Under the pieces are notes generated by a model that saw nothing but the letters and a program-made list of their open reading frames with translations, did not search any database and was not told the origin of the DNA. This document shows, in pieces, positions 1,573-27,486 of a stretch of DNA of 34,711 bases. Positions within the stretch are counted from its first letter, which is position 1. Every line of letters begins with the position of its first letter. The position numbers were made by a program, and so were the translations under genes. Source of the stretch: Candidatus Moraniibacteriota bacterium (GTDB lineage: Bacteria; Patescibacteriota; Minisyncoccia; Moranbacterales; UBA1568); NCBI GenBank assembly GCA_037142915.1, contig JBAWZR010000003.1, positions 1 to 34,711 of the forward strand. Reading direction: 5' to 3'.

Positions 1573-1658
1573 TGTCATCCCGCACTTGATGCGGGATCCA
1601 GGCTGTATTGAAATTAAACGCAATCGAACCTGGATCCCGGGTCAAGCCCGGGATGACA
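1573..1658. repeat. TGTCAT-tagged REP doublet (REPIN-like) between atpA and atpG
   Basis: tgtcatcccgcacttgatgcgggatccagg (1573-1602) and its inverted partner cctggatcccgggtcaagcccgggatgaca (1629-1658); each half is itself palindromic. Confidence 0.9.
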
Positions 1659-6128: not shown

Positions 6129-6196
6129 TGTCATGCTGAACTTGTTTCAGCATCTTGAAACACAAACGCAGATCCCGAAACGAGTTCGGGATGACA
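6129..6196. repeat. TGTCAT-tagged REP doublet upstream of leuS
   Basis: tgtcatgctgaacttgtttcagcatct (6129-6155) ... agatcccgaaacgagttcgggatgaca (6170-6196). Confidence 0.85.
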
Positions 6197-6222: not shown

Positions 6223-8814
6223 ATGAAAACCTCGCGCTATAATCCGAAGAAAATCGAAGCCAAATGGCAGAAGTACTGGCTGAAAAACGAAACCTATCGC
6301 GCCGACCTCGATTCGAGTCGGAAGAAGTTTTACGCATTGGTGGAATTTCCGTTTCCCTCGGGGGATGGTCTGCATACTGGGCATATCCGCGGCTATACAG
6401 CGATGGACATCATCGCGCGCAAACGGCGACTCGAGGGCTACAATGTACTCTTTCCGATCGGGTGGGATGCATTTGGTCTGCCGACGGAGAACTATGCCAT
6501 CAAAACCGGACTGCACCCGGCCAAGGTCACGAAACAAAACACCGATACTTTCCGCAAGCAGCTTCGATCAGTTGGGTTGGCTTTCGATTGGTCACGCGAG
6601 ATCAATACGACCGACCCGGAATACTATCGGTGGACACAGTGGATTTTCCTGCAACTCTTCAAGAAAGGTCTGGCTTACAAGGCTAAAATGGAAATCAATT
6701 GGTGTCCGAGCTGCAAAATCGGCCTCGCCAACGAGGAGGCTCAGGGTGGCGTGTGCGAGCGGTGCGGCGGCCCGATCGAGAAACGGGAGAAGGAGCAATG
6801 GATGCTCGCTATCACCAAGTACGCCGACCGCCTCGACCAAGATCTCGACACTGTGGATTATTGGGAGAAGATCAAAATCCAACAACGCAATTGGATCGGC
6901 CGGAGCGAAGGAATGATCGTAAAGTTTTCTGTCATTGCGAGCGAAGCGCGGCAATCTCCTAATGATGAGGGGATTGCCACGGTCTCCGCCAGTGGGCGGA
7001 TCCCTCGCAATGACAGTTTCTTAGAAGTCTTCACCACGCGGGTCGATACGATTTATGGCTGTACGTATGTGGTGGTCGCACCGGAGCATGAGATTCTCAA
7101 GAATAAAGAATTGGGAATTACCAATCAAGCAGAAATTCAAAAATATATAGACACAGTCAAAAAAATCACTGAGCAAGACCGGCTGGATGCGACCAAAGAA
7201 AAAACCGGCGTGAAGATTGAGGGTATCGAGGCAATTAATCCTTTCGCGGGCGAATCTGTGCCGATCTTTGTGGCGGATTATGTCCTCGGCAATTACGGTA
7301 CCGGCGCGGTGATGGCCGTCCCTGCGCACGACGAACGAGATCTCGCCTTCGCAAAGAAGTATGAGTTGCCGATAAAAATTTCCATTCAAGGAAATAATTT
7401 TAATGACGAAGGATGTTTTACAGAAGATGGTGTACTTGTAAATTCTGGTGAGTTTTCAGACTTGAAATCAGAAGAAGCTCGAGAGAAAATGGTCGCGTGG
7501 TTGGAGGAACGAGACCTAGGAAAAAAGCAGGTCAATTTCAAATTACGCGATTGGGTGTTTTCTCGTCAGCGTTATTGGGGCGAGCCGATTCCGATGGTTT
7601 TCTGTCCCTCCTGTGCTAAGGCTACGGCGGGCGAGGAAAATTCTGGTTGGGTGCCGTTGCCGGAGAGTGAGTTGCCACTTAAGCTGCCGAAAGTGAAAAG
7701 TTATATCCCGACTGATACGGGCGAATCTCCACTGGCCGTGATGAAAAAATGGGTGAACACGAAGTGCCCCGTATGCGGGGGTAAGGCGACGCGCGAGACG
7801 GACACGATGCCCAACTGGGCGGGATCATCGTGGTATTATTTGCGTTATACCGACCCGAAAAATGCTGAAGCGTTGGCAAGTCAAGAAGCACTGAAATATT
7901 GGATGGGATGTCGTACTGAATCTTCTCCGGCTCGCCCCGCGGCGCAGCTTTGCGGGGTAGATTGGTATAACGGTGGGATGGAACACACGACTTTGCATTT
8001 ACTGTACTCGCGATTCTGGCACAAGTTCCTTTTTGACATTGGCGTGGTGCCGACGAGCGAGCCATATATGAAACGCACGAGTCATGGGTTGATCCTCGCC
8101 GAGGGTGGTGTGAAAATGAGCAAGTCCAAGGGTAACGTGGTTAATCCGGATAGCGTGGTACGAGACTTCGGCGCCGATACGCTCCGCGTGTACGAGATGT
8201 TTATGGGGCCGTTCGACCAGCCGGTAGCATGGAGTATGGAGAGTATTTCCGGTTCGCGACGGTTTCTCGAGAAGGTGTGGAAATTGCAGGGAAAAGTAGT
8301 TGATGGCGCTCCCCTCGGACAGCTTGCCCGTCCGGTAGGCGGGGGGAGCGAGAAATGCGAAATGCTATTACACCAAACAATTAAGAAAGTCTCTGAAGAT
8401 ATAGAAGCGATGCGATTTAACACGGCCATCAGTAGTCTCATGATTCTCGTGAATGAATGGGAGAAAGAAGAAATGGTTGAGAGAGAAATGTATGAAAAAT
8501 TTTTAATTCTCTTGAGTCCGTTCGCGCCACATATCGCAGAAGAGTTGTGGCAAGTACTGGGCAATGAAGATTCTCTTTTTACCGCGCAGTGGCCGGTAGC
8601 TAATGAGAACTATCTCGTGCAAAAAACAGCAAAAATTATCGTACAGGTGAACGGAAAATTGCGAGCGAGTTTTGATATGCCGACGGATGCCAACGAGACA
8701 GATGTGAGAGCGCAAGCCGAAGCGGATGGGCGAGTAGCGATGTATCTCACAGATAAAACCATCCGCAAAGTTATTTTTGTCCCGAATCGATTGATTAATT
8801 TTGTGGTTGGTTGA
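6223..8814 (+). CDS. leuS: Leucine--tRNA ligase with multiple palindromic in-frame insertions
   Basis: FPFPSGDGLHTGH (HIGH variant), GWDAFGLP, GTGAVMAVPAHDERD, DWVFSRQRYWG and KMSKS motifs; start at ATG 6223 because the upstream extension is REP sequence. Confidence 0.99.
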   Translation: MKTSRYNPKKIEAKWQKYWLKNETYRADLDSSRKKFYALVEFPFPSGDGLHTGHIRGYTAMDIIARKRRLEGYNVLFPIGWDAFGLPTENYAIKTGLHPAKVTKQNTDTFRKQLRSVGLAFDWSREINTTDPEYYRWTQWIFLQLFKKGLAYKAKMEINWCPSCKIGLANEEAQGGVCERCGGPIEKREKEQWMLAITKYADRLDQDLDTVDYWEKIKIQQRNWIGRSEGMIVKFSVIASEARQSPNDEGIATVSASGRIPRNDSFLEVFTTRVDTIYGCTYVVVAPEHEILKNKELGITNQAEIQKYIDTVKKITEQDRLDATKEKTGVKIEGIEAINPFAGESVPIFVADYVLGNYGTGAVMAVPAHDERDLAFAKKYELPIKISIQGNNFNDEGCFTEDGVLVNSGEFSDLKSEEAREKMVAWLEERDLGKKQVNFKLRDWVFSRQRYWGEPIPMVFCPSCAKATAGEENSGWVPLPESELPLKLPKVKSYIPTDTGESPLAVMKKWVNTKCPVCGGKATRETDTMPNWAGSSWYYLRYTDPKNAEALASQEALKYWMGCRTESSPARPAAQLCGVDWYNGGMEHTTLHLLYSRFWHKFLFDIGVVPTSEPYMKRTSHGLILAEGGVKMSKSKGNVVNPDSVVRDFGADTLRVYEMFMGPFDQPVAWSMESISGSRRFLEKVWKLQGKVVDGAPLGQLARPVGGGSEKCEMLLHQTIKKVSEDIEAMRFNTAISSLMILVNEWEKEEMVEREMYEKFLILLSPFAPHIAEELWQVLGNEDSLFTAQWPVANENYLVQKTAKIIVQVNGKLRASFDMPTDANETDVRAQAEADGRVAMYLTDKTIRKVIFVPNRLINFVVG
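6929..7016. repeat. TGTCAT-tagged REP doublet inserted in frame in leuS
   Basis: ctgtcattgcgag/ctcgcaatgacag 13-bp outer stem, gcggcaatctcct/aggggattgccac inner stem, nested tccgcc-agtg-ggcgga. Confidence 0.9.
7935..7957. repeat. GC-rich palindrome within a leuS insertion
   Basis: ccccgcgg...ttgcgggg stem inside the extra peptide GCRTESSPARPAAQLCG. Confidence 0.55.
8307..8350. repeat. GC-rich palindrome within a leuS linker
   Basis: cgctcccctc/ggggggagcg 10-bp stem (one G-U); encodes APLGQLARPVGGGS. Confidence 0.65.
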
Positions 8815-8830: not shown

Positions 8831-9240
8831 TTGTGTCATTCTCGCGAAGGCGGGAATCCAGGTACCACAAAACCAAGAGATAAAGAAGGTAAATTGAAAT
8901 GATATGAAAACCTGTTGCGTCTATATTCTTGCCAGTGAAAGAAATGGAACGCTCTACATTGGAGTTACATCGGATCTTCTCAGGAGAATATGGGAACATA
9001 AGAACAAAGCAACAAAAGGTTTTACTGAAACATATGGTGTGGATAAATTGGTATATTTCGAGCAGACGCAAGATATAATGAGTGCCATTCAAAGAGAAAA
9101 ACAATTGAAGAAATGGAATCGAGCATGGAAGATAAGGTTAATTGAAAAGAAGAATTCGAAGTGGAACGATCTTTATCTCGATTTAATAGAGAAGTGAATA
9201 TTGTGGAACCTGGATTCCCGCCTTCGCGGGAATGACACAA
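8831..9240 (+). mobile_element. Putative 410-bp element: GIY-YIG gene between 40-bp inverted REP-type ends
   Basis: 8831-8870 versus the reverse complement of 9201-9240: 38/40 identical; each end contains a palindrome. Confidence 0.7.
8904..9197 (+). CDS. Small stand-alone GIY-YIG nuclease family protein
   Basis: VYILAS..GTLYIGVTSDLLRRIWEHK...LVYFE...AIQREKQLKKWNRAWK motif pattern. Confidence 0.93.
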   Translation: MKTCCVYILASERNGTLYIGVTSDLLRRIWEHKNKATKGFTETYGVDKLVYFEQTQDIMSAIQREKQLKKWNRAWKIRLIEKKNSKWNDLYLDLIEK

Positions 9241-9284
9241 ATGCAAAGACAAGACTGACATAAATGAGGTAATAGATAAAATTT

Positions 9285-9956
9285 ATGCAAGGAGTGATAC
9301 TGGCGGCCGGACGTGGCACGCGAATGGAAAACCTAACGGATGAGGTGCCGAAGCCGATGCTCCCCGTGCATGGGAAGCCGATTTTGGCACACAAACTCGA
9401 GCATCTACCGGAGGAGATAGACGAGGTGATCTTTATCGTGGGATACAGGGCGGAAGTGATTCAAAATTATTTCGGTGAGGAGTGGGGCGGGCGGAAAATC
9501 CGGTATGCGTTTCAAGAAGAATTAAATGGAACAGCGGGTGCGATCCACCTTGTGAAGGATCTTGTGCGAGGGAATTTCCTCGTAATGATGGGCGATGACT
9601 TTTATGCGAAGGATGACTTGGAACGATTGATACAGTATCCGTTGGCAATTCTCAGTATCCACTTTGATGACGCATCAGCCTTCGGAATCCTGGCCAAGGA
9701 TGCAAATGATAATTTACTCGAAGTGGTGGAGCGACCGCACGGATTTGCGAGTGGCATGGTAAATACGGGTGCGTATATGTTGACGCCGGAATTTTTCAAG
9801 TATCCGCCGGTAAAAATATCCGAGACGGAATATGGTTTGCCTCAGACATTGGCCATGATGGCCAAAGAAACACCGGTGAAAGTAGTGGAGGCGACTCGGT
9901 GGTGTCCGATTGGCCGGTCGAATGATCTCACCACCGCAGAGCAATTCATTTTTTAA
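9285..9956 (+). CDS. Sugar-phosphate nucleotidyltransferase (GlmU N-terminal-like)
   Basis: VILAAGRGTRM..LT..VPKPMLPV, QEELNGTAGA, VMMGDD and VERP motifs; adjacent to glmS. Confidence 0.9.
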   Translation: MQGVILAAGRGTRMENLTDEVPKPMLPVHGKPILAHKLEHLPEEIDEVIFIVGYRAEVIQNYFGEEWGGRKIRYAFQEELNGTAGAIHLVKDLVRGNFLVMMGDDFYAKDDLERLIQYPLAILSIHFDDASAFGILAKDANDNLLEVVERPHGFASGMVNTGAYMLTPEFFKYPPVKISETEYGLPQTLAMMAKETPVKVVEATRWCPIGRSNDLTTAEQFIF

Positions 9957-12714: not shown

Positions 12715-12814
12715 ATTTAATAGAGACGTGAATATTGTGGAACCTAGATTCCCGTCCGCCGCGGCGGACGGGAATGATGAAATTACAAAGACAGGTCTGA
12801 CACAGATGCAGTAA
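12715..12814 (+). repeat. Diverged direct copy of 9181-9272 (GIY-YIG 3' end, right REP end and leader)
   Basis: First 40 nt are 38/40 identical to 9181-9220; loop ccttcg is replaced by tccgccgcggcgga; similarity continues downstream. Confidence 0.85.
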
Positions 12815-12828
12815 CAAATAATAATTCT

Positions 12829-13863
12829 ATGAAACCGAAGAAAATTGTCACGATTGGCGGAGGGACGGGGAGTTTTGTTTTGTTGTCGGGTCTGAAAAAA
12901 TACCCGGTGGATATTTCGGCGATCGTCTCGATGGCGGATGATGGTGGTTCGGCGGGTGTTTTGCGTGATGAGTTGGGCGTATTGCCGCCGGGCGATGTGC
13001 GCCAATGTCTCGTCGCTTTGTCGGAGTCGAGCGAGAAGATGCGCGAACTAATGAACTACCGTTTTGAGGACGGTCGTCTGCAGGGGCAGAGTTTTGGCAA
13101 TATGCTCGTGAGCGCCTTGGAAAAAATTTGTGGTGGGATGGCATCTGGACTCGAAGAGGCGGCGAAGATCTTGAAAGTTTATGGGCGCGTGTTGCCCGTT
13201 ACTGAAGATGATATGCGCCTCGTGATCGAGTTGGAGAATGGCCATGTGCTCTACGGCGAAGATCAATTGGATTCCAACCAGGAACTTCGTCAGCAGGGAA
13301 TTATGCTCAAAAAAATCGCGTTGCAATCGCGGGTTCGAGCCAATTCCCAAGCAATAGACGCGTTGAAAGGTGCCGATGTGATTATTTTGGGACCGGGCGA
13401 TCAGTTCGGCAGTTTGATACCCAACCTCCTCGTCAAGGAAATCGCGCAGACTATCAAAACCGCCAAGGCGCAGGTGGTCTATGTAGCGAATTTGACGAAC
13501 AAGAAGGGTCTTACGACCGGATGGACGGCGTGTGAATATGTCGCCTCTCTGGAAAAATATATCGGCAAGGGCCGAATCGACGTTGTTATCTGGAATACCC
13601 GACGGATTCCCAAAGCACTCATCGAAAAATATGAAGAGCAGGAAGGCGATCATGCTATCGTAGAGGCAGGCGATGAGCAGACGAAAACATATAAGTTGTG
13701 CAAGGCCGATGTGGCCAATGTCCGCGAAGTCATTCGCCGTAAGGGTGATGCGATTGCCTCCACACGTTCTTTCATTCGTCATGACTCGGACAAATTGGCG
13801 CGTGCGATTATGTTCGTACTTGATTTCAATGAGAACCGGAAGATTATCCGGGAGATCGTGTAG
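12829..13863 (+). CDS. yvcK: YvcK/GlmR family (UPF0052) protein
   Basis: VTIGGGTG, MADDGGSAGVLRDELGVLPPGDVRQCL and RHDSDKLA motifs. Confidence 0.93.
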   Translation: MKPKKIVTIGGGTGSFVLLSGLKKYPVDISAIVSMADDGGSAGVLRDELGVLPPGDVRQCLVALSESSEKMRELMNYRFEDGRLQGQSFGNMLVSALEKICGGMASGLEEAAKILKVYGRVLPVTEDDMRLVIELENGHVLYGEDQLDSNQELRQQGIMLKKIALQSRVRANSQAIDALKGADVIILGPGDQFGSLIPNLLVKEIAQTIKTAKAQVVYVANLTNKKGLTTGWTACEYVASLEKYIGKGRIDVVIWNTRRIPKALIEKYEEQEGDHAIVEAGDEQTKTYKLCKADVANVREVIRRKGDAIASTRSFIRHDSDKLARAIMFVLDFNENRKIIREIV

Positions 13864-27456: not shown

Positions 27457-27486
27457 TGTCATCCCGCACTTGATGCGGGATCCAGG
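27457..27486 (+). repeat. Solo TGTCAT-tagged REP identical to 1573-1602
   Basis: tgtcatcccgcacttgatgcgggatccagg, 30/30 identical. Confidence 0.9.

What the first reader, a model, noticed from the sequence alone, without database searches (positions are those of the whole stretch)
8831..9240. GIY-YIG nuclease bracketed by 40-bp inverted REP ends: candidate driver of a dispersed TGTCAT repeat family
Seen: a lone 97-aa GIY-YIG gene lies between 8831-8870 and 9201-9240, which are 38/40 inverted repeats. Each has the form TGTCATTCyCGCGAAGGCGGGAATCCAGG. The same TGTCAT-[hairpin]-ATC grammar occurs without cargo at 1573-1658, 6129-6196, 6929-7016, about 12735-12777 and 27457-27486. Known: RAYT transposase genes are flanked by their cognate REPs and maintain REPIN doublets. 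As far as I recall, no mobiliser is established for the C/TGTC-tagged REP superfamily. Inference: this is the analogous autonomous unit, with a GIY-YIG nickase in place of an HUH transposase, and the doublets are its non-autonomous derivatives.
Basis: partly seen in the sequence, partly recalled or inferred. Interest (0 to 1): 0.85.

Follow-up and report, generated by a model that had tools for sequence, protein, structure and literature searches.

The report
Ssn nuclease gene with hairpin repeats
This is a small DNA-cutting enzyme gene bracketed by the hairpin repeats it most likely recognises, a pairing already described in 2025 as the Ssn family and seen here in a tiny-genome lake bacterium.

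Summary
Window 8834-9237 is a 404-bp unit: a 97-aa single-domain GIY-YIG gene (8904-9197) between two inverted hairpin repeats (40-nt arms, 38 of 40 complementary).

The idea is largely already published. Chenal et al. 2025 (PMC11893778) described the Ssn family: about 94-aa GIY-YIG nucleases flanked by NTS/SRM hairpins, which they bind as single-stranded DNA and cut a few nucleotides upstream.

Both window repeats fit that paper's search motif and match the Neisseria NTS consensus at 27 of 28 positions. I therefore file this as a new member of a known kind, in a Patescibacteria-type genome of 0.99 Mb.

New here:
- A second gene unit lies on contig C52.
- There are 63 motif hits against 3-7 in controls.
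- Gene-less doublets fall into discrete sizes, 80-95 bp and 152-154 bp, and some pairs are 94-97% identical.
- One doublet sits where a related genome has the gene-bearing unit.
- One relative has an empty leuS junction.
- A doublet lies in frame inside leuS.

In the sampled genomes, close homologues are flanked by inverted hairpins in 13 of 15 and 61 of 78 loci.

That the nuclease mobilises the repeats is still an inference. I found no target duplication and no excision joint.

The parts
8834..9237 (+). Whole gene-bearing unit (404 bp): hairpin, ssn-like gene, inverted hairpin.
   Evidence: It is one of two '+ then -' motif pairs of this size class, 404 and 411 bp. The inverted repeat is shown.
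8834..8861 (+). Left NTS/SRM hairpin: TGTC head, 8-bp stem with one mismatch, GAAG loop, CCAG tail.
   Evidence: It matches the published SRM search motif. DNA fold -5.6 kcal/mol. It is part of inverted-repeat arm 8831-8870.
8904..9197 (+). 97-aa single-domain GIY-YIG nuclease gene, Ssn-like.
   Evidence: PF01541 at E 1.8e-17. Y18, R28, H32, E65 and N72 are invariant and Y7 is nearly invariant in alignment A1. At least 7992 homologues reach E <= 1e-10.
9210..9237 (-). Right NTS/SRM hairpin, inverted; perfect 8-bp stem.
   Evidence: It matches the published SRM motif. DNA fold -9.0 kcal/mol, z -3.05. It is part of arm 9201-9240.
1573..1658 (.). 86-bp gene-less doublet of the 5-nt-loop hairpin family, with two different hairpins head to head.
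   Evidence: It is 97% identical to the doublet at C31:9679-9764 and 95% to C15:16351-16437. It folds as one long hairpin at -30.1 kcal/mol, z -8.3.
6129..6196 (.). 68-bp doublet of a third hairpin variant, 27 nt upstream of the probable leuS start at 6223.
6929..7016 (.). 88-bp doublet inside the leuS reading frame, translated in frame.
   Evidence: It lies in a length-variable loop of LeuS in the alignment of 14 sequences. Fold -32.2 kcal/mol, z -7.4.
12715..12786 (+). Relic of a third gene unit: the last codons of the nuclease gene plus a degenerate right hairpin with no TGTC head. Similarity to 9238-9290 continues to 12834.
   Evidence: 77% identity to window 9181-9290, E 3.6e-16; alignment A2; sequence read.
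27457..27485 (+). Single hairpin of the 5-nt-loop family.

Best explanation
The 404-bp unit at 8834-9237 belongs to the published Ssn system. A 97-aa single-domain GIY-YIG endonuclease gene is bracketed by two inverted copies of its cognate hairpin repeat. That repeat is the NTS/SRM type, which is the TGTC variant of the CGTC-tagged REP superfamily.

By analogy with the characterised Neisseria and Wolbachia enzymes, the protein should bind the hairpin only when the DNA is single-stranded. It should cut that strand a few nucleotides 5' of the TGTC head. This step is inferred, not tested here.

Shown here: the same hairpin family is dispersed through this 0.99-Mb Patescibacteria-type genome. It occurs as singletons, as doublets of 80-95 bp and 152-154 bp, and as two gene-bearing units. 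The doublets are copied as whole units.

Inferred, at about 0.4-0.5: the nuclease is the agent, or one agent, that spreads the doublets and its own unit within and between genomes. The chemistry of any such movement is unknown.
For: Identity of the protein:
- PF01541 at E 1.8e-17, single domain, 97 aa.
- Y7, Y18 and E65 sit one position away from the Y6, Y17 and E64 that the paper mutated in the 94-aa Neisseria enzyme.

Identity of the repeats:
- Both flanking repeats fit the paper's SRM motif. They match its NTS consensus at 27 of 28 positions.

Association between gene and repeats:
- Both paralogues in this genome are flanked.
- In 40 loci from relatives, 13 of 15 close homologues (E <= 1e-20) have a '+' hairpin upstream and a '-' hairpin downstream within 200 bp. 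Only 1 of 25 distant GIY-YIG genes does. Any hit on reversed flanks: 2 of 15 and 3 of 25.
- In 78 loci from 16 named phyla, 61 are flanked on both sides and 77 on at least one. The reversed-sequence control gives 1 and 5.
- Among 40 relatives, 8 of 9 genomes with a close homologue carry 3 or more family-A repeats, against 3 of 31 without one.

Signs of movement:
- Discrete doublet size classes.
- The seven 152-154-bp doublets align over their whole length.
- Small doublets at unrelated loci are 94-97% identical.
- G012 has leuS directly followed by the next gene, with no unit between them.
- In G005 a gene unit lies 27 bp from the stop of an M16-peptidase-like gene. In this genome a 152-bp doublet lies 24 bp from the stop of the orthologue.
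- Homologues are 59-69% identical across 16 named phyla.
Against: Membership:
- I could not compare the protein directly with the characterised Neisseria SsnA or with CDD cd10448. Neither is reachable with these tools.
- NCBIfam has no model over its cut-off. The only related solved structure is a weak UPF0213 match at E 0.017.

Mobilisation:
- The two gene units are only 72% identical, so they are not recent copies.
- The flanks upstream of TGTC carry at most 0.63 bit per position, and no target duplication is visible.
- The 152-154-bp doublets share only their terminal 35-39 nt with the gene units. Interior matches have E 0.006-0.35.
- With inverted ends, the published strand-specific cut falls once on each strand, which does not by itself excise anything. 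GIY-YIG enzymes are hydrolytic, and none is known to join DNA (recalled).
- Three relatives without a close homologue still carry 5-8 family-A repeats: G004, G021 and G024.

The E <= 1e-20 threshold was chosen after seeing the data, and related genomes are not independent samples.
Confidence: 0.85

Rival explanations
1. Domesticated host function. The nuclease and its hairpins serve the cell, for example by restricting incoming single-stranded DNA that carries the repeat, as shown for natural transformation in Neisseria. The repeats near the gene would then be binding or regulatory sites, and the nuclease would not copy them. This is not exclusive of a mobile origin.
For: In N. meningitidis the enzyme modulates integration of transforming DNA that carries the repeat (paper abstract and Discussion). 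The two gene units here are old (72% identity) and intact, which fits retention by selection. The termini of the 152-154-bp doublets are near-identical while the interiors are 61-84% identical, which fits constraint on a protein-binding site.
Against: This does not explain several observations:
- whole doublets 94-97% identical at unrelated loci;
- discrete doublet sizes;
- the scatter of 59-69%-identical proteins over 16 phyla;
- a doublet inside an essential gene.

Nothing in this genome was tested for DNA uptake.
Confidence: 0.3
2. Homing into existing doublets. The gene is a passenger that targets doublets already present: it cuts the hairpin and is copied into the spacer by repair. Gene-less doublets would then be empty target sites that spread by another route, not derivatives of the gene unit.
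For: A gene unit in G005 and a gene-less doublet in this genome occupy the same position next to orthologous genes. That fits 'filled versus empty' as well as it fits deletion. The doublet interiors are unrelated to the gene-unit interiors apart from a short word at the same offset.
Against: The window's own site is fully empty in G012, with no doublet there. The published enzyme did not cut double-stranded DNA. It lacks the DNA-binding extension of classical GIY-YIG homing enzymes. Only one same-site comparison is available, at about 70% nucleotide identity.
Confidence: 0.12
3. Coincidence. This would be an ordinary, vertically inherited small nuclease gene that happens to lie between two copies of an abundant repeat.
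For: The repeats are abundant (63 motif hits in 0.99 Mb), so some genes will lie between two of them by chance.
Against: Both paralogues are flanked. So are 13 of 15 and 61 of 78 homologues elsewhere, against 1 of 25 distant GIY-YIG genes and 1 of 78 reversed controls. Each unit's two ends carry matching stem variants. The site is empty in G012.
Confidence: 0.01

Closest known systems
Ssn family of site-specific single-stranded DNA nucleases with NTS/SRM hairpin repeats (Chenal et al., Nat Commun 2025, PMC11893778). I read the abstract, Results sections 6-8 and 10, the Discussion and Methods section 17. The supplements were closed.
   Same: A single-domain GIY-YIG protein of about 94-97 aa. 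The gene lies between inverted hairpins. The repeats fit the published SRM motif and match the NTS consensus at 27 of 28 positions. The repeats are dispersed in the genome, and the family is spread across phyla.
   Different: The host is a Patescibacteria-type genome; that word does not occur in the paper's main text. The head is TGTC rather than CGTC. Discrete doublet classes, a same-site pairing of gene unit and doublet, and a doublet inside leuS are not described in the parts I read. No biochemistry exists for this protein.
CGTC-tagged REP superfamily, including Rickettsia RPE-4/-6 and Neisseria dRS3 (Di Nocera et al. 2013, PMC3733652; passages seen through 'find').
   Same: An unpaired C/TGTC head, an 8-bp stem that starts with AT, a 4- or 5-nt loop and a CCA tail. 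Head-to-head dimers predominate. Small doublets pair two different hairpins. Copies occur inside genes.
   Different: That paper found no dedicated enzyme for these repeats. Here, and in the 2025 paper, a GIY-YIG gene is the flanked partner.
RAYT/REPIN systems (Bertels and Rainey 2011, Nunvar 2010; search listings only, otherwise recalled).
   Same: It works alike in layout. A nuclease gene is flanked by its own hairpin repeats, and inverted doublets are copied as units.
   Different: The enzyme has a different fold and chemistry: a hydrolytic GIY-YIG rather than an HUH tyrosine transposase with a covalent intermediate. The repeats carry a GTAG head rather than C/TGTC. RAYTs are described as single-copy and vertically inherited, whereas this gene has two copies here and is scattered across phyla.
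IS200/IS605 'peel and paste' elements (as cited in the 2025 paper's Discussion; otherwise recalled).
   Same: Subterminal hairpins are recognised in single-stranded DNA, and there is no target duplication.
   Different: In those elements both ends are cut on the same strand by an enzyme that also rejoins DNA. Here the two motifs lie on opposite strands, and no joining activity is known.
GIY-YIG homing endonucleases such as I-TevI (recalled).
   Same: The same catalytic domain, and a selfish-gene logic is conceivable.
   Different: There is no separate DNA-binding domain, the gene is not in an intron, and the published relatives do not cut duplex DNA.

Membership tests
Ssn nuclease family (Chenal et al. 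2025) | Single-domain GIY-YIG protein of about 94-100 aa with no extra DNA-binding domain. | tested here: met
   97 aa. PF01541 covers residues 4-77, and no other domain exceeds its cut-off except an overlapping T5orf172 match.
Ssn nuclease family (Chenal et al. 2025) | Catalytic tyrosines and the metal-binding glutamate (Y6, Y17, E64 in the Neisseria enzyme). | tested here: met
   Y7, Y18 and E65 are present. Y18 and E65 are invariant and Y7 is nearly invariant in 13 sequences.
Ssn nuclease family (Chenal et al. 2025) | Gene flanked by SRM hairpins on both sides. | tested here: met
   The published SRM motif matches at 8834-8861 (+) and 9210-9237 (-). The C52 paralogue is flanked as well.
Ssn nuclease family (Chenal et al. 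2025) | Sequence homology to N. meningitidis SsnA (tblastn E < 1e-10) or assignment to CDD cd10448. | not testable with these tools
   No tool gave the Neisseria sequence or CDD models. Indirectly, homologues 59-69% identical in Betaproteobacteria and others carry the CGTC form of the same NTS.
Ssn nuclease family (Chenal et al. 2025) | Binds the hairpin as single-stranded DNA only, and cuts a few nucleotides upstream. | not testable with these tools
   This needs purified protein and oligonucleotides.
CGTC-tagged REP superfamily (Di Nocera et al. 2013) | Unpaired C/TGTC head, 8-9-bp stem starting with AT, 4-5-nt loop, CCA tail. | tested here: met
   58 of the 59 listed TGTC-headed hairpins start the stem with A, 56 of them with AT, and 55 have an 8-bp stem with a loop of 4 to 6 nt. 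The 4 others are one 10-bp stem with a 3-nt loop and three off-type copies (C15 15257, C25 3102, C3 6129). 46 of the 59 continue with CCAG and 51 with CCA or CTA.
CGTC-tagged REP superfamily (Di Nocera et al. 2013) | Mostly head-to-head dimers. | tested here: met
   18 '+ then -' pairs lie within 500 bp among the 63 motif hits.
RAYT/REPIN system | HUH tyrosine (Y1) transposase gene flanked by GTAG-headed REPs. | tested here: not met
   The protein is GIY-YIG and the repeats have a TGTC head. It resembles this system in layout only.
Insertion sequence / MITE pair | Terminal inverted repeats shared by the gene-bearing and gene-less forms. | tested here: met
   The terminal 35-39 nt are shared at 90-100% identity.
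Insertion sequence / MITE pair | Target-site duplication or a defined target. | tested here: not met
   No direct repeats appear at the 9 unit boundaries examined. The upstream flanks carry at most 0.63 bit per position.
Insertion sequence / MITE pair | Near-identical copies at unrelated loci, indicating recent movement. | tested here: inconclusive
   The gene units are 72% identical. The 152-154-bp doublets are 77-90% identical. The small doublets reach 97%.
Insertion sequence / MITE pair | Empty site in a relative. | tested here: inconclusive
   G012 has leuS and the next gene 4 nt apart with no unit. However, that genome is only 64-70% identical in DNA, so the exact boundaries cannot be read.

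The most novel reading that the evidence does not exclude
The hairpin-gene-hairpin units would be active selfish elements of a new prokaryotic class, in which a hydrolytic GIY-YIG single-stranded-DNA nuclease, not a transposase, starts the copying. The 80-95-bp and 152-154-bp doublets would be their non-autonomous riders. This would give the long-orphaned CGTC repeats (Rickettsia RPEs, Neisseria dRS3) their mobiliser. It would also explain how they enter coding regions in frame and cross phylum boundaries.
Probability: 0.35. Interest if true: 0.8.

Novelty: new member of a known kind. Interest (0 to 1): 0.35.

Why it matters
That pairing is now one of the few known site-specific single-stranded DNA nuclease systems.

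This instance adds little to the biochemistry. It does give comparative hints on the question the 2025 paper left open, namely whether the nuclease spreads the repeats:
- Doublets are copied as whole units.
- A doublet stands where a relative has the gene unit.
- One orthologous site is empty.
- A doublet is tolerated inside an essential gene of a very small genome.

If mobilisation were shown, the origin of the CGTC repeat superfamily, unexplained since 2013, would be settled.

Tried and rejected
Public reads. Four lake and freshwater runs hold the region, but only as assembled contigs, and two of them may be the source of this DNA. Contigs break at the repeats. The joints near 8861-8870 to 9201-9210 carry other letters between their sides or have short sides, so they most likely come from doublets elsewhere or in other organisms. 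No joint skips the whole unit from about 8833 to 9238. This gives no verdict on excision. One contig in X1 joins 6896 to 7022 (skipping 125 nt, letters between not known); I could not interpret it.

Direct comparison with the characterised Neisseria or Wolbachia enzymes. No tool gave those sequences, and the 14 control genomes do not include Neisseria. The protein atlas gave only GIY-YIG clusters, commonest in Pseudomonadota.

Doublets as simple internal deletions of the gene unit. Beyond the 35-39-nt termini, only 9-12-nt words match, at E 0.006-0.35.

Doublet interiors as inverted duplications of one end. Interior halves match at 19-23 of 39-40 positions, the same as shuffles with means of 20-24.

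Strict hairpin scan. It missed imperfect and nested hairpins that I then saw by eye. I replaced it with a relaxed scan that has a reversed-sequence control.

Phylum tree. With 95 columns and 81 rows, 46 of 78 inner branches are unresolved. It needs 27 label changes against a minimum of 15 and a shuffle mean of 33. The scatter fits horizontal transfer but the tree is too weak to prove it. The 80 rows were also the ones most like the query.

NCBIfam and PDB sequence searches added nothing beyond GIY-YIG.

Literature searches. Among the papers listed by these searches I saw none other than the 2025 one that links a GIY-YIG protein to these repeats, and none that describes such a protein as a transposase or mobiliser. 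In one search none of the 25 listed papers, of 55 found, held the terms 'GIY-YIG transposase' or 'GIY-YIG transposon'. Subscription journals are mostly outside that library. The supplements of both key papers were closed and may list Patescibacteria or intragenic copies.

Full report
WHAT IS THERE

The window is contig C3 of an assembly of 985,028 bases in 88 contigs, 47.5% G+C. The closest named protein matches are from Patescibacteria and Moraniibacteriota.

At 8904-9197 (+) lies a 97-aa ORF that matches Pfam GIY-YIG at E 1.8e-17. It sits between leuS (ending at 8814) and a nucleotidyl-transferase gene (starting at 9285).

The arms 8831-8870 and 9201-9240 are 40 nt long and 95% complementary. 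Each arm has a TGTC head, an 8-bp stem beginning with AT, a GAAG loop and a CCAGG tail.

THE GENOME-WIDE PICTURE

A tblastn search of the genome finds a second copy on C52 (6865-7152, -; 72% identity over 96 aa). It also finds a distant GIY-YIG gene on C75.
- The C52 copy is flanked in the same way. Its stem differs from the window's at paired positions on both arms, so each unit carries its own matching pair.
- Among 564 perfect hairpins (stem of at least 7, loop 3-8), TGTC is the commonest flanking 4-mer with 59 cases. Next is CTGG with 53, the complement of the tail. The next unrelated 4-mer has 24.
- The 59 split into 20 with the 4-nt loop of the gene's own repeats and 39 with longer loops.
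- The search motif published for these repeats gives 63 hits, against 4 on the reversed genome and 3-7 in five shuffles.
- Pairs in '+ then -' order fall into three size classes: nine of 80-95 bp, seven of 152-154 bp, and the two gene units of 404 and 411 bp.

WHAT IS ALREADY KNOWN

Di Nocera et al. 2013 (PMC3733652; passages seen) defined a superfamily of palindromic repeats with a CGTC head. The head is 'changed to TGTC' in many copies. Stems are 8-9 bp and start with AT, loops are 4 or 5 nt, and the tail is CCA. The copies are mostly head-to-head dimers. The family includes Rickettsia RPE-4 and RPE-6 and Neisseria dRS3. That paper concluded that these repeats 'apparently lack a dedicated transposase'. 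The window's repeats fit this description point by point.

Chenal et al. 2025 (PMC11893778) then made four findings:
- About half of the dRS3 copies are a longer oriented element, the NTS.
- A 94-aa single-domain GIY-YIG protein, SsnA, is the one gene family whose homologues are flanked by such repeats. With a degenerate motif, 71% have at least one repeat and 42% have repeats on both sides.
- The purified Neisseria and Wolbachia enzymes bind the hairpin only as single-stranded DNA. [quoted passage not shown] Both window repeats match that paper's motif, and they match its NTS consensus at 27 of 28 positions. The window protein has tyrosines and a glutamate one position away from the residues mutated in that paper.

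The literature searches are described under Tried and rejected. Among the papers they listed I saw no later one on mobility and none describing a GIY-YIG protein as a transposase.

MY OWN TEST OF THE ASSOCIATION

In 40 related genomes (same family or order, unnamed), 9 have a close homologue (E <= 1e-20).
- Of these 9, 8 carry three or more repeats of the gene's own type, against 3 of the other 31.
- The Fisher test gives 1.8e-5. However, the genomes are kin and I chose the threshold after seeing the data.

I examined 40 loci from these relatives, fetched.
- 13 of 15 close homologues have a '+' hairpin upstream and a '-' hairpin downstream within 200 bp.
- Only 1 of 25 distant GIY-YIG genes does.
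- On reversed flanks, any hit appeared in 2 of 15 and 3 of 25.
- The two misses among the close ones have a repeat just outside the 200-bp limit, or a variant head.

A scan of one genome per species returned the 80 loci most like the query, at 59-69% identity. The organisms are named to 16 phyla, with 13 rows unnamed to phylum.
- Of the 78 loci with at least 150 nt on both sides, 61 are flanked in inverted orientation and 77 have at least one repeat.
- The reversed controls give 1 and 5.
- The stricter published motif gives 26 and 57.
- Most of these repeats are the same NTS type, with CGTC in Betaproteobacteria and TGTC in several other groups.

SIGNS THAT THE UNITS MOVE

1. The seven 152-154-bp doublets align over their whole length: 77-90% overall and 61-84% in the interior. 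Their termini are nearly identical. They share the terminal 35-39 nt with the gene units.

2. Small doublets pair two different hairpins. They reach 94-97% identity between unrelated contigs, for example window 1573-1658 and C31:9679-9764. Whole doublets have therefore been copied recently.

3. In G012, a genome of the same family, the leuS stop and the start of the nucleotidyl-transferase gene are 4 nt apart. In the window they are 470 nt apart.

4. In G005 (another genus) a gene unit 80% identical in protein lies 27 bp from the stop of an M16-peptidase-like gene. In this genome a 152-bp gene-less doublet lies 24 bp from the stop of the orthologue (63% identical), and the right-hand junctions align.

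5. The doublet at 6929-7016 is read in frame within leuS, in a loop whose length varies among 14 aligned LeuS sequences. At least three relatives carry extra in-frame stretches at the same or other LeuS positions. In at least one of them (G029) the stretch looks repeat-encoded.

6. At 12715-12786 the last codons of a third nuclease gene and a decayed right hairpin survive.

WHAT SPEAKS AGAINST MOVEMENT, OR IS MISSING

- The two gene units are old copies, only 72% identical.
- There is no target duplication, and no conserved flank beyond a G/T preference at position -1.
- The doublet interiors are not derived from the gene-unit interiors in any way I could show.
- Metagenome contigs break at the repeats and give no empty-site joint.
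- The published cut is strand-specific. With inverted ends, each strand is therefore cut once at its own 5' boundary, which does not release the unit. An additional step would be needed, such as replication from the nick, fold-back of the doublet or host repair. The doublets do fold as long hairpins, at -30 and -32 kcal/mol with z -8.3 and -7.4. This part is inference.

VERDICT

The feature is real and well above chance. It is best filed as a new member of the published Ssn/NTS-SRM system, in a Patescibacteria-type genome. I put membership at about 0.85-0.9. The direct comparison with the characterised enzymes could not be run.

The comparative hints above favour it, but no event was caught and no chemistry is known. 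A host function like the control of transforming DNA in Neisseria remains a live, non-exclusive alternative.

Noticed in passing
G000 contig C75:2001-2326 (locus L069); loci L039, L040, L046, L053, L054, L055, L059, L060, L062 in relatives: A second, distant class of small GIY-YIG genes (35-47% identical to the window protein) is not flanked by hairpins but sits next to tRNA genes.
- In 10 of the 12 loci examined, the gene ends 12-128 nt upstream of a tRNA gene in the same orientation. L039 and L055 overlap and cover one place.
- 11 of the 25 distant-class loci contain a tRNA gene.
- In 4 of those 10 loci a partial copy of the tRNA's 5' part lies upstream of the nuclease gene. The C75 copy is 30 nt and exact, next to tRNA-Glu.

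This looks like a separate tRNA-associated mobile gene.
   Followed up: partly
window 6929-7016; loci L018, L021, L023: LeuS carries an in-frame, repeat-encoded stretch in this genome. Three relatives carry extra in-frame stretches at the same or other LeuS positions; in G029 the stretch looks repeat-encoded, with peptide words typical of translated hairpins. This resembles the in-frame Rickettsia palindromic elements.
   Followed up: partly
window 9238-9290 and 12787-12834: About 48 nt to the right of the right hairpin are conserved between the intact unit and the relic. In both places this stretch runs up to the start codon of the next gene. Either the copied unit extends beyond the hairpin in this lineage, or it carries a start region for the downstream gene.
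   Followed up: no
window 57-66 nt inside each unit end (for example 8890-8899): A short word (AAATTGAA-like) recurs at the same offset from the TGTC head, in the gene units and in both halves of the 152-154-bp doublets. It may be a subterminal site or a promoter element. The matches are not significant on their own.
   Followed up: no
loci L071-L150: Proteins 59-69% identical to the window's occur in organisms named to 16 phyla. LeuS of genomes in the window's own family, by contrast, is only 47-71% identical over the tested 200 residues. This points to frequent transfer between phyla.
   Followed up: partly
window 6896-7022, run X1: One metagenome contig joins 6896 to 7022, skipping 125 nt around the leuS doublet (letters between not known, depth 5.5). 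It may be a leuS allele or a relative without the doublet.
   Followed up: no
loci L029, L048, L098, L113, L148: Some flanking hairpins carry a second hairpin nested in their loop, with shared words such as CCTGCC...GGCAGG across unrelated genomes. This suggests repeats inserted into repeats.
   Followed up: no
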